Assembly: GCA_040755995.1 (NCBI GenBank) | Contig: JBFMAF010000037.1 | Location: forward strand, 192,001-256,000 | DNA from: Acidobacteriota bacterium | GTDB taxonomy: Bacteria > Acidobacteriota > CAIWXX01 | Direction: 5' to 3' | Length of the DNA: 64,000 bases | Shown: in pieces, positions 17,550 to 63,731 of the stretch | How the letters are laid out: each line of letters starts with the position of its first letter | Numbering within the stretch: the stretch's first letter is position 1 | The notes under the pieces: model-generated | What the model was told of the DNA's origin: nothing | The model's database searches: none | What the model saw: the letters and a program-made list of their open reading frames with translations, nothing else | Position numbers and translations under genes: made by a program

Positions 17550-17662
17550 TCACGAATGCCTGGCGCGAAAGAGACTGTAGCGATCGAGCCGGAGTGCGTG
17601 CCCGTGAGGCGCGGCCGGAGCGGCCTCGCATGATTCATCGGCCAGAGGCCCCGCCTCGCTGA
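17550..17662 (+). repeat. Dispersed element, copy A (short; lacks the heptamer segment; left edge approximate)
   Basis: Degenerate box CTGTAGCGATCGAGC at 17575-17589; 56-bp palindrome at 17604-17659 aligns without gaps to four other copies. Confidence 0.7.
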
Positions 17663-17664
17663 AG

Positions 17665-19656
17665 ATGGACCCCCTGGATCAGCAGAAGGACCCGACCCCG
17701 CCTCTTCGCACCCCGCCGGTCATCGTCGGCAGCGAAGAGACCACACACGAGACGACCGCCACATGGCCGCGGCCGACGCTGAGACGCCCGCTGCAGGCGC
17801 TGCGTCTGAGCCTGACGGCCCGGCTGGTCGTCGCCGCTCTCCTGAGCGGACTCGCCGTCATGGCGCTCGTCTCGCTCGTGCCTTTGCATCGCGAGAGGGT
17901 GGTTCTTTTGGAGCAGTACAGCAGGCGAGCAACTTCGCTCGCGACGGTGGCGGCCTGGAGCGCCGGGGAGGCCCTGTCCGTCAACGACCTGACGTCCTTG
18001 CAGGCCCTCGTCGGGCACCTCAAGAACGAAGCTGACGTGGTGTATGCTCTGGTGCTCGGCCGGGACGAGAAACCGATCGCGTGGAGCGACCCGGCGGTGC
18101 TGGGCGGCAGGCTTCCGGCGGCGGAACCGCGGCCGGGCCTCGGGGTGTCGGGGTCAGAGATCAGGATGATCCAGTACCAGCCAGGCGGCGCGTCGGCGCC
18201 GGCTCCGGTCCTCGACATCAGCGTCACCGTACCGCCCGGTGACCAGCTGCCTGTGTCTTACGGTACGCTCAGGATCGGACTCTCGCTCGAGGGCATGAAC
18301 AGGGAGCTGTCCAAGACGCGGTTGATATTGCTGGCACAGGCCGAGCTTGCGGTAGGCCTGTGCGCCCTCGTCGCCTTTCTCGTGGCCAGAGGGATCACGA
18401 CACCCATTCGGCGGCTGGTCACCGCGGCCATGCGGGCCGCCAAGGGTGATCTGGCCGCGAGGATACGCATACAGCGAAAGGACGAGATCGGGGAGCTTGC
18501 GCGCAGTTTCAACTACATGGTGGAACAGATCAGGACCAATCAGAGGAAGATCGAGGAGCTGAACCGAAACCTCGAGCGGAAGGTCAAGATCCGCACCAAG
18601 GAGCTCGAGGACAGCAACCGCGCCTTGAAGAAGGCCTTCCTGGAGCTGAAGCACGCCGAGTCGCAGATCATCCATTCGGAAAAGATGGCCTCGCTCGGGC
18701 AGGTCGTGGCCGGTGTGGCCCACGAGATCAACACACCGACATCCGCCATCAATGCCGCCGCCGACAACATGCGTTACCACATGGAATGCGTGGGCCCGCA
18801 GCTCCAGGCGCTCTACGCCCTGCATCTGGACTCCGGCGCGATGCAGGTCCTGCACAGGGTCTTCGACAGGATCACACGAGTCGAAGGCGGCGGGCCGCAC
18901 GTCAGCTCGGGGGACCTCCGCATCCGCAGCCGCGCCATAGAGGAGTCGCTGGAAGCCCAGGGGCTGGATGACCAGCGCGACCTCGCCTATGCACTCGCGC
19001 GGCTCGACCTCGGTCAGGAGTTGGACGAGCTGCTGAGGCAGCTCGGCCGGGACCGTCTCGACGTGGTCGTGCCATTCCTGCGCAGCATCGCCGTGATGTC
19101 GAGCTCGATCCTCGACCTCAGGACCAGCGTGAATGCGATCATGCGCCTGGTGAAAGCCCTAAAGACGTACTCACACCTCGACCAGGCCGAGGTGACGGAT
19201 GTCAACATCCACGACGGCCTGGAGACCACGCTCACCATCCTGCACAACCAGCTGCGCTACGGGATCACGGTCGAACGGAACTACGGCAGTGTTCCCTTCA
19301 TCCGTGGAAACCCATCGGAGCTGAATCAGATATGGACAAATATCCTCGTTAATGCTATTCAAGCAATGAAAGGCAACGGCAAGATCACGATCGAGACCGG
19401 CACGAGGGACGGGTGGGTTTTCGCAAGAATCACGGACGACGGACCGGGCATACCATCCAGTATCCTGGGGCGGGTTTTCGATCCTTTCTTCACCACCAAG
19501 GCCCAGGGAGAAGGCACTGGGCTCGGGCTGTCGATCTGCCAGCAGCTTGCCATGCGCAACCGCGGCCGGATCTCAGTGCGGTCACATCCGGGGCAAACCT
19601 GTTTCGAGGTGATGTTCCCGACAGGTGTGGAGCGGGGGGCGAATGCCGAGACGTGA
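17665..19656 (+). CDS. Membrane sensor histidine kinase (two TM, HAMP, HisKA, HATPase_c)
   Basis: DEIGELARSFNYM HAMP; EKMASLGQVVAGVAHEINTP H-box; NAIQA, DDGPGI, FDPFFTTK and GTGLGL. Confidence 0.92.
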   Translation: MDPLDQQKDPTPPLRTPPVIVGSEETTHETTATWPRPTLRRPLQALRLSLTARLVVAALLSGLAVMALVSLVPLHRERVVLLEQYSRRATSLATVAAWSAGEALSVNDLTSLQALVGHLKNEADVVYALVLGRDEKPIAWSDPAVLGGRLPAAEPRPGLGVSGSEIRMIQYQPGGASAPAPVLDISVTVPPGDQLPVSYGTLRIGLSLEGMNRELSKTRLILLAQAELAVGLCALVAFLVARGITTPIRRLVTAAMRAAKGDLAARIRIQRKDEIGELARSFNYMVEQIRTNQRKIEELNRNLERKVKIRTKELEDSNRALKKAFLELKHAESQIIHSEKMASLGQVVAGVAHEINTPTSAINAAADNMRYHMECVGPQLQALYALHLDSGAMQVLHRVFDRITRVEGGGPHVSSGDLRIRSRAIEESLEAQGLDDQRDLAYALARLDLGQELDELLRQLGRDRLDVVVPFLRSIAVMSSSILDLRTSVNAIMRLVKALKTYSHLDQAEVTDVNIHDGLETTLTILHNQLRYGITVERNYGSVPFIRGNPSELNQIWTNILVNAIQAMKGNGKITIETGTRDGWVFARITDDGPGIPSSILGRVFDPFFTTKAQGEGTGLGLSICQQLAMRNRGRISVRSHPGQTCFEVMFPTGVERGANAET

Positions 19657-21322
19657 CGGTGTGAAGGCCGAGCGGACCACGCAGGCCCGTGTGCCTCCTC
19701 CAAGGCGGCTCACGCGATACATTCTCTGCGTCGATGACGAACAGGCAGTGCTGAACCAGCTCATCCACCAGCTCACTCGCAAGTTCGGCAGGACGCACAG
19801 GATCGAGGGAGCGGAGAGCGCCGAGGAGGCGCTGCGACTCATCGAGGAGCTCCATCGGGAAGGGGGCCGCGTCGAGCTGGTCATATGCGACCAGATCATG
19901 CCGGGCATGCGGGGCGATCACTTCCTCGAGGTGGTCAATCGCGCACATCCGGACATCATCAAGATCCTCCTGACAGGCCACGCAGGGCTTGACTCCGCTA
20001 TATACGCCATCAACCACGCCGGCCTGAACAAGTACATCGAGAAACCGTGGGAGATCGAAGACCTCAACCTGACCATCCAGAATCTGCTGATTCAGTACGC
20101 ACTCGGCCAGGAGGTCCGTGACCACCATCGGGAGCTGGAGCAGAAGAATGCCAGCCTCCATCTTCTGCAGGACCTTGGATTGCGGCTCGCGGGCCTCCAT
20201 CAAGTGGACGACGCCATGCCGGTCGTCGTCGAGTACGCTCGCAAACTCGCCTCCTGGGCCAATGTCGCTCTCTTCCTCTCCGGAAGGACCCGTCGCACGA
20301 ACGTGGATGTGTGGAGTTTCTCGCCGGAGTTCGACCTGGATGACGCTGCACGCCGCGCCATTGCAGCCGCAGCGCTCGCGCGGTGCGCGCCGCCTCATCA
20401 GAGCTACCTCGAAATGGAGCTGCCGGGGAGCCCGCCTGCTCACCCTGGCGGACACTCGGCCCAGCCCCCGCCGACACAATTCGCGCTCTTCCCCCTCCGC
20501 ACGAAAGAACGCACGTACGGTGCGTTGATATGCGCCCATTCGCACGACGACCCGATTGCCACCTCCGATGCGGAGCTGTTGAACATCCTCACCAGCCATG
20601 TGTCGATGACCGTCGAAAACCGCCTGCTCATCGAACAACGCATACTGTCGGAGAAGCTGGCCGCCATCGGCCACATGGTCTCGGCCATCACCCACGACTA
20701 CCGCACTCCGATGACCGTCATCCGTGGATACGCCGAGCTTCTGGAAGCGGATGACCTCCCGCCTGCAGACCGCAGGAAGCTGGGGTCGCGAATCGGCGCC
20801 GAGGTCGAACGTATGCAGCACATGATCGAAGAGCTGCTGGACTTTGTACGAGGGGCCAAAGGAGAGCCCAAGCTCGCGCCCTGCCTGCTCCGAAATCTGT
20901 TCGAGACCCTGCAATCGGAGTTCGGCGCAGATCTCGCGGCGGGTGGTATCACGCTCGAATACCGCTTCGCCGACACCGGCATGGTCCTCGCCGACTGTGA
21001 CAGGCTCAAGCGCGCCTTCGCGAACCTCATCAGGAACTCGATCGACGCCATGCCTGACGGGGGCATCATCCGCGTGAATCTCGAGCTCGACGGCGACAGC
21101 TACAACCTACGGATAGCTGACAACGGAGTCGGCATCCCAAAGGAGAACCTGAGTCGTGTGTTCGAGCCCTACTTCAGCAGCGGAAAGCGCCACGGCCTCG
21201 GCCTCGGCACCAGCATAGCCCGAAACATAATCGAAGAACACGGCGGATCGATCACGGCATGGAGCGAGCCTGGAACTGGAACCACCTTCACGATCTTGTT
21301 GCCGCGGGCGCAACCCACTTGA
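19643..21322 (+). CDS. Cytoplasmic hybrid kinase: receiver, GAF-like, histidine kinase
   Basis: [17 protein letters not shown] and KPW receiver motifs; HDYRTP H-box; NSIDA, DNGVGI and GLGLG; start uncertain. Confidence 0.88.
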
Positions 21323-21323
21323 T

Positions 21324-21344
21324 ATTTCAGATTGCAGATTGCAG
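21324..21344 (+). repeat. Heptamer tandem array ATT(T/G)CAG x3
   Basis: atttcag attgcag attgcag immediately after the kinase stop codon. Confidence 0.7.
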
Positions 21345-21380
21345 ACGGCCCTGGGCTGCTGCGATCGAAGGAGTTGCTTC

Positions 21381-22634
21381 ATGACTACATACCCGGATGC
21401 ACTACTTGACGATCAGGAACGCCGGCTGCGCGACGAGGTGCGCGACTTCGTCAGCTGGGTGCCGAAGCAGCTCATTCTCGACATGGACGCGGACAAGGTC
21501 CGCTTCCCCAGGGAATACCTGGAGGAAGCAGGCCGGCGCCGGTTGCTGGGCCTGCGGTTCTCCCCGGACTACGGCGGACGCGGACTGCCGTGGGGCAGCG
21601 AGATGATCGCCCTCGAGGAGATCGGAGTCCTCGGCACATCGCTCGCCTGCCTCTACTCGCTGGTCAGCATAGTAGGGGAGGCCGTCCATGTCTTCGGCAC
21701 GGAGGATCAGAAGCGGAAATACCTTGCGCCAATGGTTGCCGGAAAGCTCGGGCCCGCCGAGGCGCTGACGGAGCCACGAGGCGGCTCAGACTTCTTCGGC
21801 GCAGTCACCAAAGCCGTCCGCGACGGCCAGGAGTTCATTCTCAACGGCCAGAAGCGGTTCATCGTGGGCGCGGAAGGTGCCGACGTGTTCTTGGTCTACG
21901 CCAAGACCGATGCCACGGCCTCCCCCAGGAGGGCCATGACGGCGTTCCTTGTGGACAGGTCCGACCGCATCGCCGTCGAACACGTCTACGGCCTGATGGG
22001 GACGCGGGGCGGCGGCACCGGCCGGGTGCGGTTCCGCGATGCGCGCGTGCCCGGTGCGAATGTGCTGGGCGGCGAACCGGGCGTCGGGCGTGGCGCCGAG
22101 GTTTTCGACCAGATGATGATCCCCGAGCGCATGACGTCCGCCTGCGGCGCGTTGGGCATGGCGCGCGCCGCGCTGGAAGTGGCCGCCCGCTACGCGGCAA
22201 AGCGCAAGGCTTTCGGCCAGGAGATCCGCAAGTACGAGGCGGTGAGCTTCAAGATCGCCGACAGCCTCACCCAACTCGACGCCGCGCGCGGCCTCTGCCG
22301 CGAAACCTGCCGCGCGATCGACGGCAAGGTCGACCCAGGCCGCGTCCGCCGCATGGTCTCCGAGTCGAAGAAGTTCGCCACGGACATGGCGTGGAACGTG
22401 GTCAACGCGTCCATGCAGATCCTGGGCGGCATCGGCTACACGAATGTCTTCCCGGTCGAACGGCTGCTGCGCGACACCCGCCTGATCATGATCTGGACCG
22501 GCACCAACGAGATCATGGATCTGGTCATCCAGCACGAGTTTTACAAGGAGTTCGCCGGCGCAACGTCGAGCTGGCGCGACATCGAGCGCGACGCCGAAGG
22601 CGCCGATCTGCCGGAAGAGAAGGTGTACGAGTAG
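21381..22634 (+). CDS. Acyl-CoA dehydrogenase family protein
   Basis: [34 protein letters not shown] and [17 protein letters not shown]. Confidence 0.92.
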
Positions 22635-22657
22635 TGACGCAGTGAGGCGGAGAGGAG

Positions 22658-22694
22658 GAGCCGCGGAGACGAGACGCAGAGACGCGGAGAGATG
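22658..22694 (+). repeat. Degenerate octamer array (GAGACGCG-like)
   Basis: gagccgcg gagac gagacgca gagacgcg gagagatg. Confidence 0.6.
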
Positions 22695-22819
22695 GGTGAT
22701 GACGCTGTCGATCTACAAAATGATGGCAACGAGTGGAGCCAGGTCTTCACTCTTGATTGCGGCGGCTGCGGGAGGCCCGAGGTCGCGGTCGGGCCTATGT
22801 TGGCTCCGACGACGCCCGC

Positions 22820-23305
22820 TCAGGCTTCGCCGGCGAGCTTGAGGACGGCGGCGCGAGTGTGGGGTGCGAGGCGGAATCGGAGATCGTGGAGGCGATCCAG
22901 AAGCGGCTTCACTTCCTCGATCAGGCCTGCTTCCTTGGCATCGAGCAGCACTCCGAGCGTGCCCTTCAGTGGCAGTCGGTGTGAGGTCGCCAACTCCCGC
23001 GCGAGGGCATCGTCGAGCACGACGACGGCGCCCCGGGTTTCGAGCCCGAGCATCAGGACCTCGGCTTCGCCCGGGCCCAAGTCTGTCAGCAGCGGGAGAG
23101 CCTTCTCCGACACCGGTCGCCGGATGGTCACCCACTCGATCGCGGCGAGATCCGGCAGGCTCACACCAAGGCCTCTGCCGACTGCCAGCTCATCCACGAC
23201 TGCAGGCGGGACTACGATGGAACCGCAGAGTTGCTTGAGCAGATCCAGGAGGCCGAGCTGGTACAGGTACTGGATGGGAGACGTGTTGCAGATCGTCTCA
23301 GCCAA
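22820..23305 (-). CDS. DUF3368 PIN-like putative toxin
   Basis: ICNTSPI, VPPAVVDEL, LGPGEAE, LDDALAR and GTLGVLL..K..GLI. Confidence 0.85.
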   Translation of the reverse strand: MAETICNTSPIQYLYQLGLLDLLKQLCGSIVVPPAVVDELAVGRGLGVSLPDLAAIEWVTIRRPVSEKALPLLTDLGPGEAEVLMLGLETRGAVVVLDDALARELATSHRLPLKGTLGVLLDAKEAGLIEEVKPLLDRLHDLRFRLAPHTRAAVLKLAGEA

Positions 23306-23549
23306 GCCGTGCCTCGGCCTTCAGATCATCCTCAGTGAGCTGGAACGTATCGACGCCGTAGTCGGCGAGTTTCGAGAGAAACACGGTTCGAGGCATCCCC
23401 GCCAACTTGGCAGCCGCGCCCGATGACATTCTTCCCAGCTCGAACAGCTTCACAGCCGCAGCCATTCTCAGCTCAGAAGCGGCATCGCTTGGGGGCAGAC
23501 GCAACGCTAGCAACGTCTCTTCTGGAACCTCGATCGTGATCCGGCACAT
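23298..23549 (-). CDS. UPF0175 family putative antitoxin
   Basis: AAVKLFELGRMSSGAAAKLAGMPRTVFLSKL..YGV; overlaps the DUF3368 gene. Confidence 0.88.
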   Translation of the reverse strand: MCRITIEVPEETLLALRLPPSDAASELRMAAAVKLFELGRMSSGAAAKLAGMPRTVFLSKLADYGVDTFQLTEDDLKAEARLG

Positions 23550-23564
23550 GGTGGCCCTCCTTCT

Positions 23565-23927
23565 TCACCCACGCCCGTTTGCACGGGCATGTCGATCAAG
23601 AAGCCCATCAATCATCTTGAGGACGACGCGAATGTCGGCCGAAGGGAGTTGTTCTATCCTCTGGAGTCGCTTGAGGAGCCGCGCTGCACGCGGATCAGGC
23701 GTTTCCTTCTGGGCCTTGAGGCCGAGGAGCTGGTCGGTGGACACTCGTAGTGCACGAGCAAGGTCGATGAGCAGCGCGCCGCGTGACTGGGCGTCCGCTT
23801 GTTCATAATAGGCGATCACCCGTTTGGACACGCCCACGGCTTCGCCTAGCTCTGCTTGAGTCATGGCCCGGCTCCGCCGGATGTCGGCGAGTCGCCTGCC
23901 GAAGCCCTTTAGGGTTCGCTCTTTCAT
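23565..23927 (-). CDS. XRE-family HTH transcriptional regulator
   Basis: FGRRLADIRRSRAMTQAELGEAVGVSKRVIAYYE...LARALRVSTDQLLG; alternative start at 23954. Confidence 0.85.
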   Translation of the reverse strand: MKERTLKGFGRRLADIRRSRAMTQAELGEAVGVSKRVIAYYEQADAQSRGALLIDLARALRVSTDQLLGLKAQKETPDPRAARLLKRLQRIEQLPSADIRVVLKMIDGLLDRHARANGRG

Positions 23928-24045
23928 GTGCACCGCAAGACAGGTCAGCTTCATCTGACACTTCCTGAGTACAGGAGCGAATTCCATAAGCGACTTTCCC
24001 ACTTGACAAACATGATACCATTATCGTATCTCTCCTGATGAGAAT

Positions 24046-24225
24046 TTGCCAGGGTGCCTTTTCTATCTCAGGCATTTCGTCCACCGGCCGCTTGAACGCG
24101 CCGTGGATGACATCCGGCGCGTGAGTAGTGAGACGATCGCCGAGTACACACGAGAGCTCCGGGCGCAACGGTATCGCTCGCAGAATAGCGGTCTGTGGCG
24201 GCCGCTCACGGCGCACGGGTTTCCT
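24046..24225 (+). pseudogene. Probable fragment of a tyrosine recombinase N-terminal (SAM-like) domain
   Basis: YLRHFVH...ERAVDDIRRVSSETIAEYTRELR...PLT resembles XerD-like N-terminal domains; no catalytic domain follows. Confidence 0.4.
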
Positions 24226-24507: not shown

Positions 24508-24536
24508 TTGACTAGCGCCGGGGGACCGTTTAGATT
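24508..24536 (+). promoter_or_regulatory. Sigma70-type promoter of the ACIII/oxidase operon (probably leaderless)
   Basis: TTGACT-N17-TAGATT, with the actA ATG 8 nt after the -10 and no SD. Confidence 0.6.
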
Positions 24537-44115: not shown

Positions 44116-44123
44116 CGCGGGCA

Positions 44124-44293
44124 CTGGCGAAACGCGGCCTCGGTCCGATGAAGCGTGCGAGGCCGCGCCGGCCGCACCTCGCGTAGAGAGTGGAGAGTCG
44201 AGAGTGGAGAGTGAACAGCTCCCCTGTGGCGATGACGCCGCGCTCCATGAACGTGACTCAGTCGCAACATGCTTTTCCCCTCAGGCCCCCTAG
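44124..44293 (-). repeat. Dispersed element, copy B
   Basis: Reverse strand reads CTAG...ATGTTGCGACTGAGT (44270-44256)...four CTCTCNA heptamers...56-bp palindrome (44182-44127)...CCAG. Confidence 0.85.
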
Positions 44294-50950: not shown

Positions 50951-51122
50951 CTGGGAATGACTTGAGGTGAGAATGATGTTGCGATTGAGTAGAGTCCTTG
51001 ACGCGGTGCGTCACCACCACGCCCAAGCCAGTCATTCTCAACTCCGCGCTCTTGACTTTCTACGCGAGGCGCAGCCGACGCTGCGGGGCATAGATCATGG
51101 GTCAGAGGCCGCGCCTCGCTGG
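50951..51122 (+). repeat. Dispersed element, copy C
   Basis: CTGG...ATGTTGCGATTGAGT (50976-50990)...degenerate heptamers...56-bp palindrome (51064-51119)...CTGG. Confidence 0.85.
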
Positions 51123-51136
51123 AGCAGGAGGCGCAG

Positions 51137-55803: not shown

Positions 55804-57851
55804 GTCTCCTGATCGCCGCGGCGTGCACTCTGTGCCACCCGCCCGCCCGCGCCCAGCAGACTTCGCCTTCGGTGATACCCACCCCGGGATACTACGACCT
55901 GTACTTTTCGAGCAGGATATTCGATCTGCCGCTTTTTGGCAGCGAGTCCCCGATCAGCTATCACTTGTTTGCGAGCCAGCTTCTGGGCTCGGGAGCCAGC
56001 GTGACCTCATGGCTCGACAGCGGTTTTCCAAACTATCGAACGGACGCCGGATTGGAAATCTCGCAGATCCGATTCCGCGAAGGCCTCTGTCGCGTCAACG
56101 CGGGTGATTTCCGTTTCTCGCCGCTCCAGCCGGCGACCTTCATCCCGTTCACGCGGGAGAGCTATCCGATGCAAGGGGGAGAGGTGCGCTATGCCGGAGA
56201 CCGCAAGCAGTGGAGTCTGTTCGCGGGACGCCCGAAGTACTTCATTCAGCTTCCGCGGGAGCCGACGGAAGAGCCGTGGCTTTTCGGAGCCAGGTACCTT
56301 GCGAAGCGTAGCCCCGGCTGGGTCGGGGTCTCAGTAATCGGCGTCGAGAATCCAACTTACGTGGAGCCTCTTGGAGGTGGCTCGAAGACAACGGGATTGC
56401 TCGCGGGCGATCTGATTCGTGAGATCTCCCCGCGATCCAGCGTCTTTGGGGAGGTGCTGTTGACTGCGGATGGAGGCGTCGGGGCGCGCGCAGGCGCTCA
56501 GCGGCAGCTCGACTACGGCGCAGTCAAGCTCACCGTCTACTCGTTCGACAGCTCCTTCCCATACGTGTATCCGCTCTATCGCCCCGGCGAGTGGGGCGCC
56601 GAGTTGTCCGGCCAGTTCCGGCCCTCTGAGTTCTCCAGCGTATCCGGATATCTCAATTTCTATGACGACACGCGCGTCGAGCAGAAGAAGGACTTTCGGC
56701 TTGCTCTGGGATACTCGAAGAGCTTCGGGAGCAATCGGCCGAGCATTGAGATCGGGTACGACCGCAACGACGTGGTCTACGATTCCCTCAGTGTGGCGAC
56801 CTCCGACATAGTCGCAAATCGCTTCACGTTCAGCGTGAACAAGAGCTCCAGCGTCGAGATGACCAGGCTGACCGCCGAGTACACCACGGGGTCCGAAGGG
56901 GGCCAGCCCGATCGCGCTCAGGTCTATTTCCTCTTCCAGCGCGTCGTTGGATTCGACTCGTTCCTGACGGGATCCGCCGTAGTGCACCGGGAAGTGGGCA
57001 CGGGATTCGGCTTCACTGCACTGACGACGATCGAGCGGCCGTGGCGGGGCCGGTACTACTACCTCGTGGGAGGGGGTGCCGAGTACCTGGATGATTCAGG
57101 GCGCAAGTCGGGCGAAGGCGTCCTCCGTCTGGGTCTGTCGCGGCGGGTGCTGGAGAGCGGATGGTGGGCTCGCATCGAGGCAGCCATACCCTTCTCCGTG
57201 GGCCTCTCCAGAAGCGGAATCACCAACAGGCAGATCGCCTTCGACTTCGGTCACAAGCTCAGATGGAAGGATATCCACGACCTTCGTGGGGTTTTCGGTT
57301 CCCTCCTCGCCAGAGACACCGGTACAATCGAGGGGCGGGTTGTTCGGGAGGGGCAGGGAGTCAGCGGGCTGAAGATCTTGGTGGCCGGCGTTCACCGCGA
57401 CACCACCGGCAGGGACGGCTCGTTTCGTGTCACACGAGTGGCGTCGGGACTGACCACCGTGTCCCTCGACGTTCGTCAGCTCGAACCTCGCTTGTCCGTC
57501 GTTGGGGGTCCTTCTCGGAGCGTGCTGGTGACGGCTCGCGAGACGACACGAGTCGAGCTGCAGCTGGCGGAGCTCAGCTACTTTCAGGGATCCGTGGTGA
57601 TCTGCGACGGGGAACAGGTCCGGCCGGTCGAAGGCGCCTCGATCACCATCCGCGGCGACCGACACGAGGCAAAGGCAGAGACGGACTACCTGGGAGGCTT
57701 CCAGTTCGAGAACATACCGCCGGGGGTTTACGAGGTCAGCATTGATCCGGCCACGTTGAACGGCGGAATCGCGCCAGCAACGCCGCTCGTCTGGCGGGTC
57801 GATCTGACCCAGGACCTCGCAGGATACGTAATCCGCATCAACTGCCCTTGA
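55800..57851 (+). CDS. Usher-like outer-membrane beta-barrel protein with two C-terminal carboxypeptidase-regulatory-like domains
   Basis: Amphipathic beta-strands; GDFRFS; GTIEGRV..G..TTGRDGSF and TDYLGGFQFENIPPGVYEV. The in-frame signal peptide lies upstream of the GTG at 55872, so the start is uncertain. Confidence 0.65.
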   Translation: MSLLIAAACTLCHPPARAQQTSPSVIPTPGYYDLYFSSRIFDLPLFGSESPISYHLFASQLLGSGASVTSWLDSGFPNYRTDAGLEISQIRFREGLCRVNAGDFRFSPLQPATFIPFTRESYPMQGGEVRYAGDRKQWSLFAGRPKYFIQLPREPTEEPWLFGARYLAKRSPGWVGVSVIGVENPTYVEPLGGGSKTTGLLAGDLIREISPRSSVFGEVLLTADGGVGARAGAQRQLDYGAVKLTVYSFDSSFPYVYPLYRPGEWGAELSGQFRPSEFSSVSGYLNFYDDTRVEQKKDFRLALGYSKSFGSNRPSIEIGYDRNDVVYDSLSVATSDIVANRFTFSVNKSSSVEMTRLTAEYTTGSEGGQPDRAQVYFLFQRVVGFDSFLTGSAVVHREVGTGFGFTALTTIERPWRGRYYYLVGGGAEYLDDSGRKSGEGVLRLGLSRRVLESGWWARIEAAIPFSVGLSRSGITNRQIAFDFGHKLRWKDIHDLRGVFGSLLARDTGTIEGRVVREGQGVSGLKILVAGVHRDTTGRDGSFRVTRVASGLTTVSLDVRQLEPRLSVVGGPSRSVLVTARETTRVELQLAELSYFQGSVVICDGEQVRPVEGASITIRGDRHEAKAETDYLGGFQFENIPPGVYEVSIDPATLNGGIAPATPLVWRVDLTQDLAGYVIRINCP

Positions 57852-58029
57852 CGGCGGCGTCAACCTCCGCAGCGGACCTCGGCCAAGGAACTCGTCGTCG
57901 GCGTGTGCGTAGAGGCACGGCACCTGATTCCTGCCCTTTCGTCACCCGGTGACACCCATTCATCCCCAGACGGTTGTCCAGAACCGGCGGCCGGTCTACC
58001 TTCTTGGATAAGCGGGCGGACGCCGAGCC

Positions 58030-58731
58030 ATGAGAGCTACTTACTTCGCATTCCTGCTCTCAGCGACCCTCTCAGTCCAACAGGCCGGCGCCGCCCGGCA
58101 TCCAGACATCGACCGCATCGGCGCCCGGAACATCAATCACGGAATCTACGGCTTCCCGAACTTCATCAGCCCGGAAGAGGAAGCCCGGCTGGGTGCGAAG
58201 CTCGATGAAGCGCTCCAGTTGACCGAACACCTGGTGGTTGAACGCGTGGCCCAAGCCCGCATCGAGTCGATCGCCGCTCGCGTGGCACTGTCAAGCGACT
58301 ATACAGGAGAGGTGCGCGTCCGTCTCACGACGAGCCGCCCACTCAAGGCCACTGCCATAATGGGGGGCTACCTCTACATCGACACTTCGGTCGTCGCCCT
58401 GACCAGCTCCGACGACGAGCTCGCCGCCGTACTCGCCCACGAGGTTGCACACCTGGCCGCCCGGCATGGCTCCGAGCTGATCTGCTACTACCAGTTCCTG
58501 GAACGCCGGTTCAAGACCCCACGCGTTATCGCCAACAACATCACAGATCGCATTCTTGCCAACGAGCTAGAGGCCGACGAGCTGGCCGCTCAGTACCTCC
58601 AGCTCGCTGGCTACGATCCAACGGCTCTTCCCCTGATACTGTGCAAGCTCGACGGCGGCCCGACCACCCGCCGCAGGATCGAGGAGCTCAGGAACAACCC
58701 GGCGCAGGCAGCGGGCTCGATCTCACGCTGA
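58030..58731 (+). CDS. M48 family metallopeptidase (short, BepA-like, secreted)
   Basis: DELAAVLAHEVAH, ELEADELA and AGYDP; signal peptide. Confidence 0.85.
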   Translation: MRATYFAFLLSATLSVQQAGAARHPDIDRIGARNINHGIYGFPNFISPEEEARLGAKLDEALQLTEHLVVERVAQARIESIAARVALSSDYTGEVRVRLTTSRPLKATAIMGGYLYIDTSVVALTSSDDELAAVLAHEVAHLAARHGSELICYYQFLERRFKTPRVIANNITDRILANELEADELAAQYLQLAGYDPTALPLILCKLDGGPTTRRRIEELRNNPAQAAGSISR

Positions 58732-58844
58732 GCCTCGTGGCCGTTCTCCGCGTCACCCCCTCTCTGGGACTGCATCCGTTGCGACATTGATCGGTTTCAC
58801 CGGCCCGCGGTGAGGCCGCTTCCTGCCGGACCCCGGATCGAGGC

Positions 58845-59747
58845 TCAGGACGCAGCGTAGGCCGGCGCAAACACGGTCCGTGCAAACTCCTCCAGAGTCG
58901 TTCGCGTCGTGTTCGAGGATGTCCTGGGCTCTGCAGAGCGCAGCACGCCGTCATTGAAGCTCCGGTACATCTCAACCATCGTCTCCGCAGCATTCCGCGA
59001 CATCCCCATCTTGAGCAGCGCGTCGAGCGTGCCCTCGTACGGAAACTGGACGTATGCAAGATCCGGCCGGCCGATGGCTGCGCCCAGTATCTTCGTGGAC
59101 TCCGCCTGATTCAAGTCGGCTGCTCCGAGCAGCTCCTCCACCCTCGATCCGGCGAAGTTCATTTCCAGCAGCCTTTGCGCCGCGCGTTCGGCGATATCCG
59201 CCGTGGCGATCTGGGAAACGGCGATGTCCGGGCGCATCGAGCCGCCATTGATCCCCTGCGCCTTGATCAGCGGGATATTCCAGAGGTGGTTCTCCATGAA
59301 GAAGGCCGGCCGCAGATTCAGGACCGCGATTCCGCTCAGCTTGTTCATGCGTTGCTCGTGATCGTGGAGCCCCGCTATGGGCCCCGTTCCTTCCGGCAGG
59401 TGTGCCCCGATGCTGCTGAGGTTCACCACCTTGCGAACGCCCGAATTGCGAGCGGCTTCGGTGAGCGATTCGCTTACCTGATTCTGGTAGGCACGGAAAT
59501 CGCTCACTTCGTAACGTGGAGGAATCATGGCGAAGACTCCTTCGGCCCCGGTGAAGGAACGCTCCAGGAAGGCACGATCACCGATGTCCCCGGCACTGGG
59601 CTCGGCTCCCCGGGCCGCAAACCGCTTCAGCCGCACCTCATCGCGGCCGACGACTCTAACCCTCACGCCCCTGGCGAGAAGGCGTTCAGCCAGCTTGCTC
59701 CCGACATTCCCCGTAGCTCCAGTGATGACGTACAGTGGCTTGTTCAT
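58845..59747 (-). CDS. NmrA-family NAD(P)-binding protein
   Basis: ITGATGNVGS, LSSIGA and LRPAFFMEN. Confidence 0.88.
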   Translation of the reverse strand: MNKPLYVITGATGNVGSKLAERLLARGVRVRVVGRDEVRLKRFAARGAEPSAGDIGDRAFLERSFTGAEGVFAMIPPRYEVSDFRAYQNQVSESLTEAARNSGVRKVVNLSSIGAHLPEGTGPIAGLHDHEQRMNKLSGIAVLNLRPAFFMENHLWNIPLIKAQGINGGSMRPDIAVSQIATADIAERAAQRLLEMNFAGSRVEELLGAADLNQAESTKILGAAIGRPDLAYVQFPYEGTLDALLKMGMSRNAAETMVEMYRSFNDGVLRSAEPRTSSNTTRTTLEEFARTVFAPAYAAS

Positions 59748-59773
59748 TTCCTTCTACTCCTTGTTGACTCTCG

Positions 59774-59801
59774 ATTATAACATGACCATCCGGATGGTCA
59801 A
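59774..59801 (-). promoter_or_regulatory. nmrA-like promoter with a perfect 18-bp TetR operator
   Basis: TTGACC-N16-TATAAT on the minus strand; palindrome TGACCATCCGGATGGTCA at 59783-59800. Confidence 0.8.
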
Positions 59802-59899
59802 GAAATATCATACGAAATACGACGCGACAAGGGCGAGCTCCAGGCAGAGCACGGGGCGCGAGATGAGAACGGCCAGGCAGGTGTGGGTTTCTCACTCTT

Positions 59900-60502
59900 T
59901 CATCTAACCTTATGCATTTCCAGGTATTTTCTTGCCATATCGCGCGCGCCTTCGACCGCGTCCGCCGATCGGCTGGCCTTCGAGACGAGTATGGCGCCTT
60001 CCAGAAGAGATACCAGGGACTGCGCTGCCCGGTTCGCGTCGAACTCAGCGCGGAAGTACCCGCGCTCCTTCCAGTTCCACAGGAAACCGGCTATCGTCAA
60101 GCGCCAAAAGCGGAAGTGCTGCGCGACTCGTCCTCGTATCTCCTCATCACGGTCGCTTACGGCCAGGGCAGTGTTGCCGACAAAGCACCCACCGCGACAC
60201 TTGGTTTGCGACATCCAGGCGGCTGTCTCGGCGAACATCTCGTCCACAGTCGCTACCGGGTCATTTCCTGTCGACCCGAAGCGGGCGAGCACCACCTCAC
60301 GCAACCCTTCGATGACACGATCGAGAACTGCTTGCATCAACGCGCGTTTACTTGGGAAGTAGTGGAACAGGTTGGCTTTCTTGATCTTGGCGGCCCGCGC
60401 CACGTCCTCCATACTCACGCCGTCAAACCCGTCCTGATGGTAGAGCCTGAGCGCCGTCTCCAGCAACCGCTCCCGCGCCACAGTGTCAGGCTTGCGCGCC
60501 AT
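59900..60502 (-). CDS. TetR/AcrR-family regulator
   Basis: GFDGVSMEDVARAAKIKKANLFHYFPSKRAL and GCFVGN. Confidence 0.92.
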   Translation of the reverse strand: MARKPDTVARERLLETALRLYHQDGFDGVSMEDVARAAKIKKANLFHYFPSKRALMQAVLDRVIEGLREVVLARFGSTGNDPVATVDEMFAETAAWMSQTKCRGGCFVGNTALAVSDRDEEIRGRVAQHFRFWRLTIAGFLWNWKERGYFRAEFDANRAAQSLVSLLEGAILVSKASRSADAVEGARDMARKYLEMHKVR

Positions 60503-60506
60503 ATGT

Positions 60507-60550
60507 TGACCAACCGGATGGTATTATATCAATCCGAGGAGCAGAGTCAA
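60507..60550 (-). promoter_or_regulatory. tetR promoter with a second operator copy
   Basis: TTGACT-N16-TATAAT on the minus strand; TGACCAACCGGATGGTAT at 60507-60524 is a 15/18 match to the nmrA operator. Confidence 0.75.
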
Positions 60551-60621
60551 GTCATTTCTGCCGGCGTGGAGCGTGTGGGCGATGATGAGGAGGCCGGATG
60601 GGCCCCCAGGGGTTTCAGCTC

Positions 60622-61002
60622 TCACCTCGGCTTGAAGACCAGCAATTTCAAATCCTTGATCGCCTTGAGGTGCCTGGCGTTGCTCGTACACAGCGGAAGC
60701 TTTAGCTCGGCCGCCGTCGCGGCCACGATGGCGTCGCCCGCGCGGAGCCCGTGGGAGAGGGCGTACTCCTCGATGTAGACACCCGCACGGTGGCCGATTT
60801 CCTCCGAAAGGGGAAGGACCTTGAACGCGAACTCCTTCAGGAAGCTCCTGGTGTGCTCGCGTTGTTGCTTGTTCTGTGCGCCCTGGAGCAACTCCATATA
60901 TGTTTGAACCGACAGCAGGCGCTCCGCCTCCGCCTCGACCAGATGGGCCGCGGCAGCATTCCCTCGCTCTATCCAGATGAAGATATCCGTGTCAAAGATC
61001 AC
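60622..61002 (-). CDS. VapC PIN-domain toxin
   Basis: IFDTDIFI, YMELLQG, GDAIVAATA and TSNARH. Confidence 0.88.
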   Translation of the reverse strand: MIFDTDIFIWIERGNAAAAHLVEAEAERLLSVQTYMELLQGAQNKQQREHTRSFLKEFAFKVLPLSEEIGHRAGVYIEEYALSHGLRAGDAIVAATAAELKLPLCTSNARHLKAIKDLKLLVFKPR

Positions 61003-61228
61003 GATATCTGCCTCCCCGCAAGACGTCCATCCGGCGAGTGACAGGTTCCTTGCTTTTGCGCATTCCAAAGAAAGGGTGCTCCGCCATACTTCGCACGGGA
61101 GCTGTCCGGGGGGCGGAGAGCACACCTTTCAGCTTGCCATGCGAGTGAACACTGACGTCTTCGTTCCGTTCCAGGGCCTTGAGGACGTCGTGCATCCGGT
61201 ATCTGAGATCGACCACACTTGCCTTCAT
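60992..61228 (-). CDS. Phd/YefM-like antitoxin
   Basis: MKASVVDLRYRMHDVLKALERNEDV..HGK; GGAGG RBS; overlaps vapC. Confidence 0.8.
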   Translation of the reverse strand: MKASVVDLRYRMHDVLKALERNEDVSVHSHGKLKGVLSAPRTAPVRSMAEHPFFGMRKSKEPVTRRMDVLRGGRYRDL

Positions 61229-61242
61229 CGCGGCCTCCCATA

Positions 61243-61261
61243 TGTATAACGGCACTATACA
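61243..61261. promoter_or_regulatory. Probable TA operator
   Basis: TGTATA-N7-TATACA inverted repeat just upstream of the antitoxin. Confidence 0.5.
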
Positions 61262-61293
61262 CAAGCAACGGGGGGGCACGTCAAGTGCCGGGG

Positions 61294-61349
61294 GACGCAA
61301 GACGGAAGACGCAAGACGGAAGACGGAAGACGGCAGAGGGAAGACGTCC
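61294..61349 (+). repeat. Heptamer array GACGGAA-like x8
   Basis: gacgcaa gacggaa gacgcaa gacggaa gacggaa gacggca gagggaa gacgtcc. Confidence 0.85.
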
Positions 61350-61577
61350 GAAAACCGGGCATCTCGCCTGGCTCCCGGTCCTATCGGTCGTTGCCACATC
61401 CAGCCCGGTCCGCGGAGAGGATCAACACAGATCACGAAGCCCGTGTGTCCGAAAGTCGAGCACGGAAGACATGACGCCTTGCCCCTGCATGTGGTCCTAT
61501 CTCTGTGAAAAACAAGTAGCTCTCCCGCGCTGCTTCCCTGGCATGGAAAACGCAGTCCGACCAGGTGGAGGTGTGAG

Positions 61578-63236
61578 ATGAGGAGAGCAGGCTGGTGGGT
61601 ATCGACAGCCAAGAATGCCATTGTAGACCTGGTCACTCCAGAGGCCGACCGGCTTCCAGGACGGGAGACGGGAGACGGAAGACGGAAGACGGGGAGGGAT
61701 AGAAGAACCTGCGGTCGGGAGCCGAGTAGGCACTGGATCACCGGATGCGTAGTTCTCTCCCTGCTCATGCCTGCAGTGTTTGCTCAAGCCCGGCCGAGGA
61801 ACGAGGGTCCGGGCGTGCCGGACAAGATTCGATACTTCGAGCTCGTCACGATGGCCGGTCGCGAGCCGGGACAGAGCCATGCGACGGACGCTGGCGTGTC
61901 GCGGCGCGAGGTGTCGTTCAGCGCCTTCGGCAGAAACTTCACCATGCAACTGGAGCCGAACGATCTGTTCGCACCAGACTCGAGGAACACCTGGATCGGG
62001 TCCAGTGGGCGCGATGTTGAGGCACCCGCCGCGGTTTTTTACAAAGGTGAACTGGCCGGTGAAGCCGGCTCGTGGGCTCGCGTGACGCTCACGGGCGGCT
62101 CGATAGACGGCATGATTTCGACGGCCGACGATGTCTACTTCGTCGAGCCGGCATCACGCTACTTCACGGGCGCACCCGCGACCGAGCTGGTTGTGTACCG
62201 GCTCTCCGATTGCGATCCCGACTGGGAGACGGGGACATGCGCTCTTGATGACCCGGAGATTGCAGCCGAGATGGGTGCCGATCCCTCGCCCAGCGTTCTG
62301 TCGAACTACGAGGCGATCAACGCCTTCCTGCCGGAGGCTCCGACCCGTCTCCTCAGGCGCTGCGAGATCGGCCTGGTTGCGGACCACGAGCTGTACCAGC
62401 GCCACGGGACGGCGACCGCGACGTACATACAGGGACTTGTCAATCAAATGGATGGGATCTTCAGGCGTGACCACGGCGTGGCCATCACGATCGCTCAAAC
62501 TGCCGTCTACACGACCGCGGACGACCCTTTCTCGAGCACCACGGACGCGGCGTCGCTGGTCAGGGAGATCGTGGCATGGAAGAGCTCCGCGCGCTGCCCA
62601 ATCAGCGGTGTGGACGTTACACATCTCTTTACAGGGCGCGATCTAAACGGATACACAGTCGGCATCTCCTATCTCGCCACGGTGTGCAACAGCGAGTACG
62701 GAGTGTCGCTGTCCCAGTCCTTCACCGACGACAACAAGTCTCTTGTCCTGGTCGTTTCGCATGAGATCGGCCACAACTTCGGCGCCTACCATGACAACCA
62801 GAGCGGCTCGCCCTGCGCGCCCGAGCCCTTCGGCTTCGTCATGAACCCGTACGTGAGCAGCCAGCTCAGCCTGAGTTTCTCTTCATGCACGAAAGGACTC
62901 ATCGCGAATCTCGTCGCCGGCGCCGGTTGTCTCGATTCGGTCGACTTCCCCAACAGGCCCCCGGTGGCGCTGGCCGGCGCCGATCAGTCCACCGTCACAA
63001 GTGCTCGCGTGTCGATCGATGGAAGCGGCAGCTACGATCCCGACGGCGACACGATCTCGTATGCCTGGAAGCAGATCAAGGGAGCCAAGGTCAAGCTGGC
63101 GAATATGAAAAGCAGCACACTCGCCTTCACGGCGCCCAGGACAGCAGCCAGACTCGTCTTCCGGCTCACCGTCAGCGATGGATCGTTGACCCGCTTCGAT
63201 GACGTGATCGTAGCCGTCAAGCTGGCGAGCCGATAG
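61578..63236 (+). CDS. M12B (reprolysin/ADAM-like) zinc metalloprotease with prodomain and C-terminal PKD-like domain
   Basis: HEIGHNFGAYHD, Met-turn VMNP, HLFTGR, prodomain AFGRNF.MQLEPN and DGSGSYDPDGD..Y.W.Q; true start uncertain. Confidence 0.85.
   Translation: MRRAGWWVSTAKNAIVDLVTPEADRLPGRETGDGRRKTGRDRRTCGREPSRHWITGCVVLSLLMPAVFAQARPRNEGPGVPDKIRYFELVTMAGREPGQSHATDAGVSRREVSFSAFGRNFTMQLEPNDLFAPDSRNTWIGSSGRDVEAPAAVFYKGELAGEAGSWARVTLTGGSIDGMISTADDVYFVEPASRYFTGAPATELVVYRLSDCDPDWETGTCALDDPEIAAEMGADPSPSVLSNYEAINAFLPEAPTRLLRRCEIGLVADHELYQRHGTATATYIQGLVNQMDGIFRRDHGVAITIAQTAVYTTADDPFSSTTDAASLVREIVAWKSSARCPISGVDVTHLFTGRDLNGYTVGISYLATVCNSEYGVSLSQSFTDDNKSLVLVVSHEIGHNFGAYHDNQSGSPCAPEPFGFVMNPYVSSQLSLSFSSCTKGLIANLVAGAGCLDSVDFPNRPPVALAGADQSTVTSARVSIDGSGSYDPDGDTISYAWKQIKGAKVKLANMKSSTLAFTAPRTAARLVFRLTVSDGSLTRFDDVIVAVKLASR
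61660..61694 (+). repeat. Heptamer array GACGGRA-like x5
   Basis: gacggga gacggga gacggaa gacggaa gacgggg. Confidence 0.8.
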
Positions 63237-63388
63237 GCGCGCTCATGCACCGCGAAACTGTGGGACACGCCCGTGAAGGGACAGGGCGCTGCATGGCCAA
63301 TCGCTTCGACCGGGATCTTCTGATAGATTGTAGTTGGGCGGATGCATTGGAGGGAAGATCGTATGCCCCGGCGTCAGTGGAGAGATCT

Positions 63389-63546
63389 CCAGGCGGCTTC
63401 AGGAGGCAAAGACATGTGGCGATTGAGTGAATGTTCCGAAGCGGTGCCTCGTCCCCACGCACGAGTCGTCCACTCTCCGCTCTCTTCCCGAGGCCCAGCC
63501 GGAGCGGCTTCGGATGTTTCATCGGTGTGAGGTCGCGCTTCGCTAG
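63389..63546 (+). repeat. Dispersed element, copy D
   Basis: CCAG...ATGTGGCGATTGAGT (63414-63428)...two heptamers...56-bp palindrome (63488-63543)...CTAG. Confidence 0.8.
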
Positions 63547-63558
63547 GCGCGTTAGCGC

Positions 63559-63731
63559 CTAGCGGGCTTCAGGGGAAGAAGATGTTGCGATTGAGTCAAG
63601 TTTGCCACGTCGCGTCATTCGCTCTGAATTCCCACGGTAGTCACTCCCAACTCTCGACTGTCGACTCTCGACGCGAGGCGGGGTCAAAGCGGCCTGGCAT
63701 GGTTCATCGGTCTGAGGCCCCGCCTCGCTAG
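63559..63731 (+). repeat. Dispersed element, copy E
   Basis: CTAG...ATGTTGCGATTGAGT (63582-63596)...four CTCTCGA-like heptamers...56-bp palindrome (63673-63728)...CTAG. Confidence 0.85.

What the first reader, a model, noticed from the sequence alone, without database searches (positions are those of the whole stretch)
17550..63731. Unrecognised ~170-bp dispersed composite element: 5 copies in 64 kb, bounded by CTAG-like tetramers
Seen: copies at ~17550-17662, 44124-44293 (minus), 50951-51122, 63389-63546 and 63559-63731. The four full copies share this order: CTAG/CTGG/CCAG, a purine-rich tract, ATGTTGCGA(T/C)TGAGT, usually GCGTCAY, 2-4 CTCTCNA heptamers, an exactly 56-bp imperfect palindrome (consensus GCGAGGCGCGGCCGGAGCGGCCTCGCATGNTTCATCGGTCNGAGGCCGCGCCTCGC), then a CTAG-like end. 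Copy A is shorter and lacks the heptamers. The palindromes align without gaps despite many substitutions. From the box to the right end, copy D is shorter than B and C by exactly two heptamers. D and E are tandem and joined by a perfect hairpin (63541-63564). Three copies end 2-30 nt before the start of a co-oriented gene (histidine kinase, nhaC, sensor at 63762). Established: CTAG target duplications occur in IS5-family elements and derived MITEs. Inference: a non-autonomous mobile element or structured RNA, possibly very abundant genome-wide; no transposase is present in the window.
Basis: partly seen in the sequence, partly recalled or inferred. Interest (0 to 1): 0.8.

Follow-up and report, generated by a model that had tools for sequence, protein, structure and literature searches.

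The report
Gene-less copies of uncatalogued jumping gene
The ~170-bp repeat occurs about 180 times in this bacterium's genome and carries the two unlike ends of a widespread but uncatalogued 1.9-kb jumping gene, whose single unclassified protein likely moves these gene-less copies into TA sites inside the rare sequence CTAG.

Summary
All five copies, the 56-bp palindrome and the D-E hairpin lie where stated. A profile of the copies finds 178 matches in the 7.7-Mb genome. Thirteen copies are 97-100% identical.

The repeat is neither an IS5-type MITE nor an Rfam RNA. Read on the opposite strand, its palindrome arm is the left end, and its "purine tract + ATGTTGCGATTGAGT box" the right end, of a 1.8-1.9-kb insertion sequence. 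That element shows no terminal inverted repeats. I found it in other genomes: three identical copies in one, and copies on Burkholderia-group plasmids.

The element encodes one ~533-aa protein that has no Pfam or NCBIfam match and is annotated "hypothetical". Relatives number in the thousands. Short gene-less derivatives occur in many phyla.

One filled/empty site pair and the flank statistics point to insertion at TA within CTAG. They argue against a 4-bp CTAG duplication. This genome's contigs hold only fragments of the protein gene, so mobilisation in trans is inferred.

Unexplained: 72 copies keep only the left end, and 49 of 140 left ends abut a stop codon.

This scan had already noted the autonomous element in other genomes. 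The earlier "Rep_trans-like" reading was inconclusive in my fold tests.

The parts
17550..17665 (+). Copy A. It is short, with a degenerate box end (from about 17559) joined directly to the palindrome, and has no heptamers.
   Evidence: nhmmer hit at 17603-17665, model positions 114-176.
44122..44293 (-). Copy B, full length, lying between the stop of a C69 peptidase gene and an Nramp gene.
   Evidence: score 159.3, model positions 4-175.
50951..51124 (+). Copy C, full length, ending 12-15 nt before the called start of an NhaC-type antiporter gene.
63389..63547 (+). Copy D, full length and two heptamers shorter than B and C.
63547..63560 (.). 14-bp palindrome GGCGCGTTAGCGCC between D and E, flanked by TA on both sides. 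It is the first 14 bp of a different, unassembled repeat and is not part of this element.
   Evidence: 18 genome occurrences. Nine continue with the same further sequence, on 8 contigs, each within about 300 bp of a contig end.
63559..63733 (+). Copy E, a member of the youngest subfamily.
   Evidence: 13 copies (E included) at 97-100% identity, 9 of them at contig ends; sharp right boundary ...CCTCGC|TAG.
63559..63619 (+). Within E: the module derived from the parent element's right end. It runs CTAG, purine tract, ATGTTGCGATTGAGTCAAG box, GCGTCAT. Its reverse complement matches AAACTTGACTCA...TCAAGG..TCTAG.
   Evidence: Alignment A5.
63643..63672 (+). Within E: the heptamer (ACTCTCN) array. 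The copy number varies between copies.
   Evidence: Strict tandem runs of 2-9 units occur in 61 of the 141 copies counted.
63673..63731 (+). Within E: the 56-bp palindrome plus TAG. Its right arm, reverse-complemented, is the parent element's left end, CTAGCGAGGC-NNN-GCCTCAGACCGA.
   Evidence: Alignment A4; stem statistics; inverted-repeat scan (I1).

Best explanation
The five window copies carry the two different ends of a 1.8-1.9-kb insertion sequence in which no terminal inverted repeats were found, with the gene between them missing. They are likely moved in trans by that element's single ~533-aa protein into TA dinucleotides, preferably inside CTAG.

Shown directly:
- The ends match the parent element's two ends.
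- The parent is a discrete multi-copy unit with one gene.
- Gene-less derivatives occur in many phyla.
- Near-identical copies sit at unrelated loci in this genome.
- TA lies on both sides of the element, and the one empty-site comparison has a single dinucleotide there.

Inferred:
- The ~533-aa protein is the transposase.
- It works by nicking and joining at CTA/TA next to the hairpins that lie just inside each end.
- An active copy exists or existed in this organism outside the assembled contigs.
- The left-end hairpin placed just after stop codons is tolerated or favoured, perhaps as a 3'-end structure for the upstream transcript.
For: 1. Ends. The reverse complements of copies A-E align with the first ~33 nt of the parent's left end (CTAGCGAGGC-NNN-GCCTCAGACCGA) and with its right end (AAACTTGACTCA...TCAAGG..TCTAG). 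The parent copies come from three independent sources.

2. The parent is a discrete mobile unit.
- Three copies of 1872 bp at 99.9-100% identity, with different flanks, lie in genome G404.
- The same ~1.81-kb unit lies at 93-95% identity on plasmids of Burkholderia sp. YI23, Caballeronia sp. SBC2 and Paraburkholderia aromaticivorans, again with different flanks.
- It holds one ORF of about 533 aa.

3. Size of the protein family.
- All 8000 scored candidates reached E<=1e-5. The 120 listed carry no Pfam domain, and the only names given are 'hypothetical protein'.
- 550 of 601 metagenome stretches were confirmed.
- Many copies lie on contigs of about 1.8-2.0 kb.

4. Gene-less derivatives elsewhere.
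- Many of these have the right-end box within about 170 nt and lineage-specific short tandem repeats in between.
- The Thiosymbion genome holds both the short forms and 6 full-length gene copies.

5. Recent spread here. Thirteen copies are 97-100% identical and have unrelated flanks.

6. Target.
- Filled site..ATTC-TA-[element]-TA-GATTCG... Homologous empty site..ATTC-TC-GACTCG...
- The right-end flank reads TA in 109 of 140 copies, and the next base varies: G 93, A 28, C 11, T 8.

7. No terminal inverted pair appears among the 25 longest inverted repeats of two autonomous copies.
Against: - The 56 contigs of this genome hold only fragments of the protein gene: C11:80795-81286 (42% identity over residues 89-252) and weak pieces on C12. 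Trans-mobilisation in this organism is therefore unproven.
- No empty site was found for any copy in this genome, and no sequencing run could be listed.
- The single empty-site pair is only 86% identical, and the empty site reads TC, not TA. A 2-bp duplication cannot be told apart from insertion after CTA by an element that itself ends in CTA.
- The protein's role rests on its being the only gene of the unit. No catalytic motif or known nuclease fold was recognised, and residues 263-382 fold with low confidence.
- 72 copies keep the left end and heptamers but lack the right end. The simple model does not predict this.
- Only the 25 longest inverted pairs were displayed, so very short terminal repeats are not excluded.
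Confidence: 0.8

Rival explanations
1. It is mainly a host-serving structured RNA or regulatory module, such as a terminator, an RNA-stabilising hairpin or a leader, that has spread or been retained for that function.
For: - 49 of 140 left ends (the palindrome side) abut the stop codon of a gene reading into them, against 7 of 85 right ends (Fisher p=3e-6).
- The 13-bp stem is 85% Watson-Crick and has compensatory changes at three adjacent pairs.
- Several copies lie just upstream of co-oriented genes.
Against: - No Rfam match.
- G:U (54) against A:C (38) gives no clear strand bias.
- Heptamer number and frame vary.
- Both ends are those of an insertion sequence.
- Copies occur in both orientations relative to their neighbours.
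- Called distances to downstream gene starts are biased, because my gene caller prefers the most upstream start.
- A secondary, co-opted role for the hairpin is not excluded.
Confidence: 0.08
2. It is a classical DDE-type MITE, derived from IS5 or IS630/Tc1, that duplicates CTAG or TA.
For: - Small, non-coding, intergenic and flanked by CTAG-like tetramers.
- A TA repeat within CTAG is what I recall for IS630.
- Two DDE_Tnp_1 genes exist in the genome.
Against: - The two ends are unlike each other and match the parent element described above, in which no terminal inverted repeats were found.
- The parent's protein has no DDE family hit in Pfam or NCBIfam.
- A 4-bp duplication is contradicted.
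- No element copy lies within 5 kb of the DDE genes (coordinates compared).
Confidence: 0.05
3. It is a REP/BIME-like palindromic element spread by a RAYT or another Y1 (IS200/IS605-type) transposase of the host.
For: - A GC-rich palindrome is followed by a fixed short motif.
- The build is modular, and hairpins lie just inside the ends.
- Two Y1_Tnp matches exist in the genome.
Against: - The Y1_Tnp loci (C36:277154 and C17:22272) have no element copy within 5 kb.
- The ends belong to a unit whose own gene shows no Y1_Tnp match.
Confidence: 0.04

Closest known systems
MITEs, i.e. internally deleted non-autonomous derivatives of insertion sequences (for example the IS630-related and IS5-related MITEs listed in PMC11602168; passages read)
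   Same: Short, gene-less, intergenic and multi-copy. They share their ends with an autonomous element and are presumed to be moved in trans.
   Different: The two ends are not inverted repeats of each other. The parent element is uncatalogued. The interior is a variable short tandem repeat. A large class (72 copies) keeps only one end.
IS630/Tc1-mariner insertion (TA duplicated, CTAG preferred; recalled, from no call)
   Same: TA on both flanks, a strong CTAG context, and one dinucleotide in the empty-site comparison.
   Different: No terminal inverted repeats were found and there is no DDE_3 or any other Pfam match. The protein is ~533 aa and has a different predicted fold.
IS200/IS605 elements and their palindrome-associated derivatives; IS91 and Helitron rolling-circle elements (recalled)
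   Same: Unlike ends, hairpins just inside the ends, a short fixed motif at the junctions, and copies truncated from one side only.
   Different: No HUH/Y1 or Y2 domain was detected by Pfam. The junction motif is CTA/TA.
Rep_trans rolling-circle initiators (PF02486; RepSTK1 and RepDE, PMC4797284, passages read), proposed for this protein by earlier notes of this scan
   Different: None of the 34 members matched PF02486 at E<=5. No Rep_trans chain appeared among the rows returned by my four fold searches on the N-terminal part. No catalytic tyrosine was assigned.
BOX elements of pneumococci and the minisatellite-bearing MITE of Porphyromonas gingivalis (PMC4596501; search listing only)
   Same: A modular short repeat with an internal unit of variable copy number.
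   Different: Unrelated sequence, different hosts and a different parent element.

Membership tests
MITE (classical definition) | Short, non-coding, multi-copy and mostly intergenic | tested here: met
   120-203 bp for full copies; 178 profile hits; 167 of 178 overlap a called gene by 30 nt or less.
MITE (classical definition) | Terminal inverted repeats | tested here: not met
   The left and right ends are unlike each other. The inverted-repeat scan of copy E finds only the internal palindrome.
MITE (classical definition) | Ends shared with an autonomous element | tested here: met
   Alignments A4 and A5 against three autonomous copies.
   The left end reads CTAA and the right end CTAG in most of the 80 metagenome copies examined. 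The outer bases disagree in at least 5 full copies of this genome.
   Two DDE_Tnp_1 loci exist, and no element copy lies within 5 kb of either. The real parent has no DDE match.
IS630/Tc1-mariner | TA duplication, CTAG preferred | tested here: inconclusive
   One filled/empty pair at 86% identity plus the flank statistics. Insertion after CTA without duplication fits equally well.
IS630/Tc1-mariner | DDE transposase and terminal inverted repeats | tested here: not met
   Pfam and NCBIfam give 0 families. No terminal pair is among the 25 longest inverted repeats.
REP/RAYT | Y1 (RAYT) gene flanked by the palindromes | tested here: not met
   The Y1_Tnp hits at C36:277154 and C17:22272 have no copy within 5 kb.
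IS200/IS605 | HUH Y1 transposase | tested here: not met
   None of the 34 members matched Y1_Tnp at E<=5.
IS200/IS605 | Hairpins just inside the ends, and strand-specific insertion 3' of a short motif without duplication | tested here: inconclusive
   Hairpins are present: GAGGC-NNN-GCCTC at the left end and CTTGA..TCAAG at the right end. The junction data cannot separate the two models.
Rep_trans (PF02486) | Match to the family profile | tested here: not met
   None of the 34 members matched at E<=5. PDB profile searches returned no Rep chain.
Rep_trans (PF02486) | Crescent-shaped beta-sheet catalytic fold with a tyrosine and three carboxylates on its inner face | tested here: inconclusive
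Any Rfam family | Match at the gathering score | tested here: not met
   0 matches in the 64-kb window. At E<=0.1 in six autonomous loci there were 2 matches, both in a flank of L158 (tmRNA and a plastid 3'UTR model).

The most novel reading that the evidence does not exclude
These repeats are the gene-less derivatives of a cross-phylum insertion-sequence family whose ~533-aa protein is a new class of transposase. It combines a TBP-like curved beta-sheet domain, possibly akin to Rep_trans nickases, with a winged helix. It moves DNA by nicking at CTA next to the hairpins just inside each end, through a single-strand or rolling-circle route. That route would explain three things: the unlike ends, the TA/CTAG junctions, and the excess of copies that keep only the left end. 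In this Acidobacterium the left-end hairpin has also been co-opted as a 3'-end structure placed directly after stop codons.
Probability: 0.3. Interest if true: 0.85.

Novelty: new variant of a known kind. Interest (0 to 1): 0.7.

Why it matters
A repeat that fills roughly 25 kb of this genome and breaks its assembly at 9 or more contig ends now has an origin. It also points to a large family of mobile elements that standard annotation labels 'hypothetical'. That family has thousands of relatives and occurs in many phyla and on plasmids of cultured Burkholderia-group and Rhodococcus strains.

In the copies examined the elements show no inverted ends, sit at TA within the rare tetramer CTAG, and encode a protein with no recognised nuclease family. 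They could therefore reveal an undescribed transposition chemistry.

In practice, the end motifs allow these elements to be annotated, help explain fragmented metagenome assemblies, and flag stop-codon-adjacent insertions that may affect gene expression.

Tried and rejected
- **Rfam.** No match at gathering score in the window. Nothing relevant at E<=0.1 in six autonomous loci.
- **Small-ORF or leader-peptide reading of 'purine tract + ATG'.** In E the frame from the ATG at 63582 ends at the terminal TAG. D differs by 14 nt, so the frame is not kept. The related element in sister genome G002 lacks the ATG. Rejected.
- **Sigma-70 promoter reading of TTGnnn-17 nt-(A/T)TGAGT.** I saw the constant spacing, but the second hexamer is a poor -10 box. 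Not pursued.
- **Alternative pairings inside the palindrome (first arm with middle segment, middle segment with second arm).** These are not maintained when partners change; for example 130:160 is C:C in 29 of 96 sequences. Only the outer 13-bp stem is supported.
- **Genes lying between paired copies as possible transposases.** They are ordinary genes (a response regulator, kinases and others).
- **Y1_Tnp and DDE_Tnp_1 loci as partners.** Rejected by distance.
- **Public sequencing runs.** None was listed for window:60000-64000, so no read-level test of presence or absence was possible.
- **Fold searches.**
  - Foldseek against PDB gave no match at E<=0.001 for the full model or the N-terminal model.
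- **Sequence searches of the protein.** Pfam, NCBIfam, PHROGs, PDB and the ESM Atlas gave no named family.
- **Literature.** Searches by motif strings, by 'new IS family / no inverted repeats / CTAG', and by 'Acidobacteria MITE' found no description of this element. Only CC-licensed PMC papers and bioRxiv were searched, and ISfinder was not available.
- **Empty sites.** A search around the YI23 plasmid copy found none.
Full report
**1. Observation**

They align with 68% mean column identity, and the palindromes align without gaps. In copy E the palindrome is 63673-63728, exactly 56 bp. Positions 63541-63564 form a perfect 10-bp stem with a 4-nt loop. Pfam confirms the neighbouring genes: a HAMP/HATPase kinase after A, an NhaC-type antiporter after C and a PAS sensor after E. 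B lies between a C69 peptidase gene and an Nramp gene.

The window is G000:C37:192001-256000, in a 7,735,285-bp genome of 56 contigs at about 63% G+C. Earlier notes of this scan call it an uncultured, sulfate-reducing Acidobacterium.

**2. Abundance in the genome**

- An nhmmer profile of the five copies gives 153 hits at E<=1e-3 and 178 after one iteration.
- With a gene caller I wrote for this purpose (codon-usage log-odds; 5974 genes; 87% coding), the 178 hits split into 69 full copies, 72 with only heptamers plus palindrome, 26 with only the box end and 11 internal pieces.
- 11 of the 178 overlap a called gene by more than 30 nt.
- Thirteen copies, E included, are 97-100% identical over 125 nt or more. 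Nine of them sit at contig ends, so the repeat breaks the assembly.
- Their flanks are unrelated. The right boundary is sharp (...CCTCGC|TAG) and the left boundary is CTAG followed by 2-3 variable bases and GGCTT.

**3. Structure of the palindrome**

- Among 96 distinct palindromes, the outer 13-bp stem is Watson-Crick in 1061 of 1248 cells (85%).
- Three adjacent pairs show compensatory double changes: G:C 73 / T:A 11; C:G 58 / G:C 25; G:C 68 / C:G 11.
- G:U (54) and A:C (38) mismatches are similar in number. The stem is therefore required, but no transcribed strand stands out. This fits a DNA-level need in master copies followed by neutral decay.
- Two alternative inner pairings are not maintained.
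- Rfam has no match in the window.

**4. A second family and relatives**

- A second family in this genome has the same box end and the same last ~33 nt. Inside, it carries GTACCC-type repeats that form a hairpin instead of the heptamers. This shows that the two termini are the conserved, cis-acting parts.
- Of the 40 other genomes searched among relatives, only sister genome G002 matched, and weakly. Inspection shows a homologous element there with a diverged box that lacks the ATG.
- Among 401 Acidobacteriota genomes, 10 matched, G000 included. Apart from G000 and G002 the matches are short and weak, several of them only to the heptamer region.

**5. Finding the parent element**

A 25-nt pattern for the palindrome's right arm plus CTAG was scanned over one genome per species.

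Many of these loci show the same plan: CTAG..CTTGA.., about 17 nt, (A/T)TGAGTCAAGTTT, then lineage-specific short tandem repeats that often form a hairpin, then ..TCGGTCTGAGGC-NNN-GCCTCGCTAG.

A few loci lacked the box nearby. Fetching their surroundings showed a 1872-bp unit present three times at 99.9-100% identity in genome G404. It begins with the box end and finishes with the palindrome-arm end. It holds one ORF on the opposite strand (P0001).

In gene-sense orientation:
- the left end is CTA(G/A)CGAGGC-NNN-GCCTCAGACCGACGAG;
- the right end is AAACTTGACTCA, then about 17-22 nt, then TCAAGG..TCTAG.

The same unit lies on plasmids of Burkholderia sp. YI23, SFA1 and RPE67, Caballeronia sp. 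SBC2 and Paraburkholderia aromaticivorans, where its gene is annotated 'hypothetical protein'. The reverse complements of window copies A-E align to both ends of three autonomous copies. The window repeats are therefore internally deleted derivatives of this element.

No terminal inverted pair is among the 25 longest inverted repeats of two autonomous copies. Shorter pairs were not displayed. The G404 copy has an internal inverted copy of its left end 91 nt inside, which is the counterpart of the window's palindrome.

**6. The protein**

- Pfam and NCBIfam return 0 families. PHROGs returns nothing below E=0.04. PDB sequence and profile searches return nothing meaningful. ESM Atlas clusters are 'hypothetical protein' with no common Pfam family.
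- All 8000 scored candidates in the large protein collection reach E<=1e-5. 550 of 601 metagenome stretches are confirmed. 20 of 401 Acidobacteriota genomes match at E<=1e-10.
- Scanning 34 members at E<=5 gives only weak winged-helix families, each in at most 7 of the 34.
- AlphaFold2 on the full length gives pLDDT 65. Residues 1-260 are confident and 263-382 are poor. The N-terminal 268 residues folded alone give pLDDT 89.3 and pTM 0.84, with very long antiparallel strands.
- Foldseek finds nothing at E<=0.001.
- Earlier notes of this scan on other genomes describe the same 1.87-kb CTAG-targeting element and call its protein Rep_trans-like.

**7. Target and junctions**

- In this genome the three bases after ...CCTCG are CTA in 84 of 140 right ends. 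The decayed forms are CCA (14) and CTG (10).
- CTAG is strongly depleted (3416 sites, observed/expected 0.38), while CCAG and CTGG are slightly enriched.
- In the 80 metagenome copies examined, the gene-sense left end mostly reads CTAA and the right end CTAG. The flanks beyond these share nothing.
- In this genome the outermost bases of the two tetramers disagree in at least 5 full copies. A 3- or 4-bp duplication is therefore rejected.
- One filled/empty comparison was found. In Caballeronia SBC2 the site reads ..GGACATTC-TA-[ACGAGG...AAGGAATC]-TA-GATTCGC... The homologous site in Burkholderia sp. PAMC 26561 (86% identity) reads ..GGACATTC-TC-GACTCGC...
- This fits a 2-bp TA repeat within C-TA-G. 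It fits equally well insertion after CTA by an element that itself ends in CTA. These data cannot separate the two.

**8. This genome lacks an intact parent**

Only a 164-residue fragment (C11:80795-81286, 42% identity) and weak pieces on C12 are present. Of five other genomes that carry the short forms, one has 6 full-length gene copies (Thiosymbion), one has only fragments, and three have no match at E<=1e-10. Genomes with only the gene-less copies therefore seem common. Multi-copy 1.9-kb elements may also simply be missing from draft assemblies.

**9. Unexplained patterns**

- 49 of 140 left ends (the palindrome side) abut the stop codon of a gene reading into them, against 7 of 85 right ends (Fisher p=3e-6). 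Among full copies the counts are 17 against 5. The stop is always TAG, formed by the flank TA plus the element's first G. The next flank base varies: G 27, A 10, C 7, T 3.
- 72 copies keep the left end and heptamers but lack the right end.
- Full copies tend to point against both neighbouring genes in gene-sense terms (33 against 16), while left-end-only copies tend the other way (24 against 14).
- Possible explanations are selection for a hairpin just after stop codons, or a polar copying mechanism. Neither was tested.

**10. Verdict**

The 'non-autonomous mobile element' reading is right. The IS5/CTAG-duplication and structured-RNA readings are not supported. The repeat is a new variant of a known kind: a gene-less derivative whose ends are not inverted repeats of each other, from an insertion-sequence family that Pfam, NCBIfam and Rfam do not cover and that I found no paper on. 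The scan had already met the autonomous element in other genomes.

Noticed in passing
window 63547-63560; also G000 contig ends C2:~121, C6:~122, C10:~123, C13:~123, C18:145583/145626, C25:41444, C38:76230, C42:101690: The 14-bp palindrome that joins D and E (GGCGCGTTAGCGCC, flanked by TA) is the first 14 bp of another repeat. That repeat continues TAGTTTTGGACAACATGTTGTCGATACTGGG... and lies within about 300 bp of the ends of 8 contigs. It is probably a second, unassembled element that also lands in TA within CTAG, often right beside copies of the element studied here.
   Followed up: partly
whole genome G000 and element ends: CTAG is strongly depleted (observed/expected 0.38), while CCAG and CTGG are slightly enriched (1.11 and 1.13). 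The decayed element ends are mostly CCAG or CTGG. This is the pattern expected from very-short-patch (Vsr) repair, which I recall from the literature.
   Followed up: no
autonomous copies, e.g. L154:1419-1506, L147:1008-1114, and 38 metagenome loci: The ~100-nt leader just before the element's gene has a conserved long-range stem, GGCTCCGGTCG...CGACCGGAGCC. Its 3' strand holds the GGAG ribosome-binding site 2-5 nt before the ATG. The stem encloses three hairpins whose sequences differ between subfamilies while the pairing is kept. RNAalifold finds 10 outer pairs, 3 of them with compensatory changes. There is no Rfam match. It may gate translation of the protein.
   Followed up: partly
loci L023-L142 from many phyla: In other phyla the interior of the gene-less copies is a lineage-specific short tandem repeat, often arranged as an inverted pair. 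Examples are GGGATC or CGGTAT hexamers in Chromatiaceae, GGGTTCA-type heptamers in Planctomycetota and a 9-mer in Armatimonadota. The origin of these fillers is unknown.
   Followed up: no
G378:C1:199939, G363:C75:3138, G180:C16:25611 (loci L015-L017): Arrays of the heptamer ACTCTC(A/G) occur in other Acidobacteriota genomes without the rest of the element, in one case as an inverted pair of arrays.
   Followed up: no
G000 C37:273988 flank, C40:89851, and inside the copy at C49:199562: Another small palindromic repeat (TATACAGCGCGAC...GTCGCGCTGTATA-like) appears in several intergenic regions and once inside a copy's palindrome loop. This suggests a further miniature element family in this genome.
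   Followed up: no
G000 C11:80795-81286: An isolated 172-codon open frame is 42% identical to residues 89-252 of the element's protein. It lies in a region without recognisable element ends and is probably a decayed relic of an autonomous copy.
   Followed up: partly
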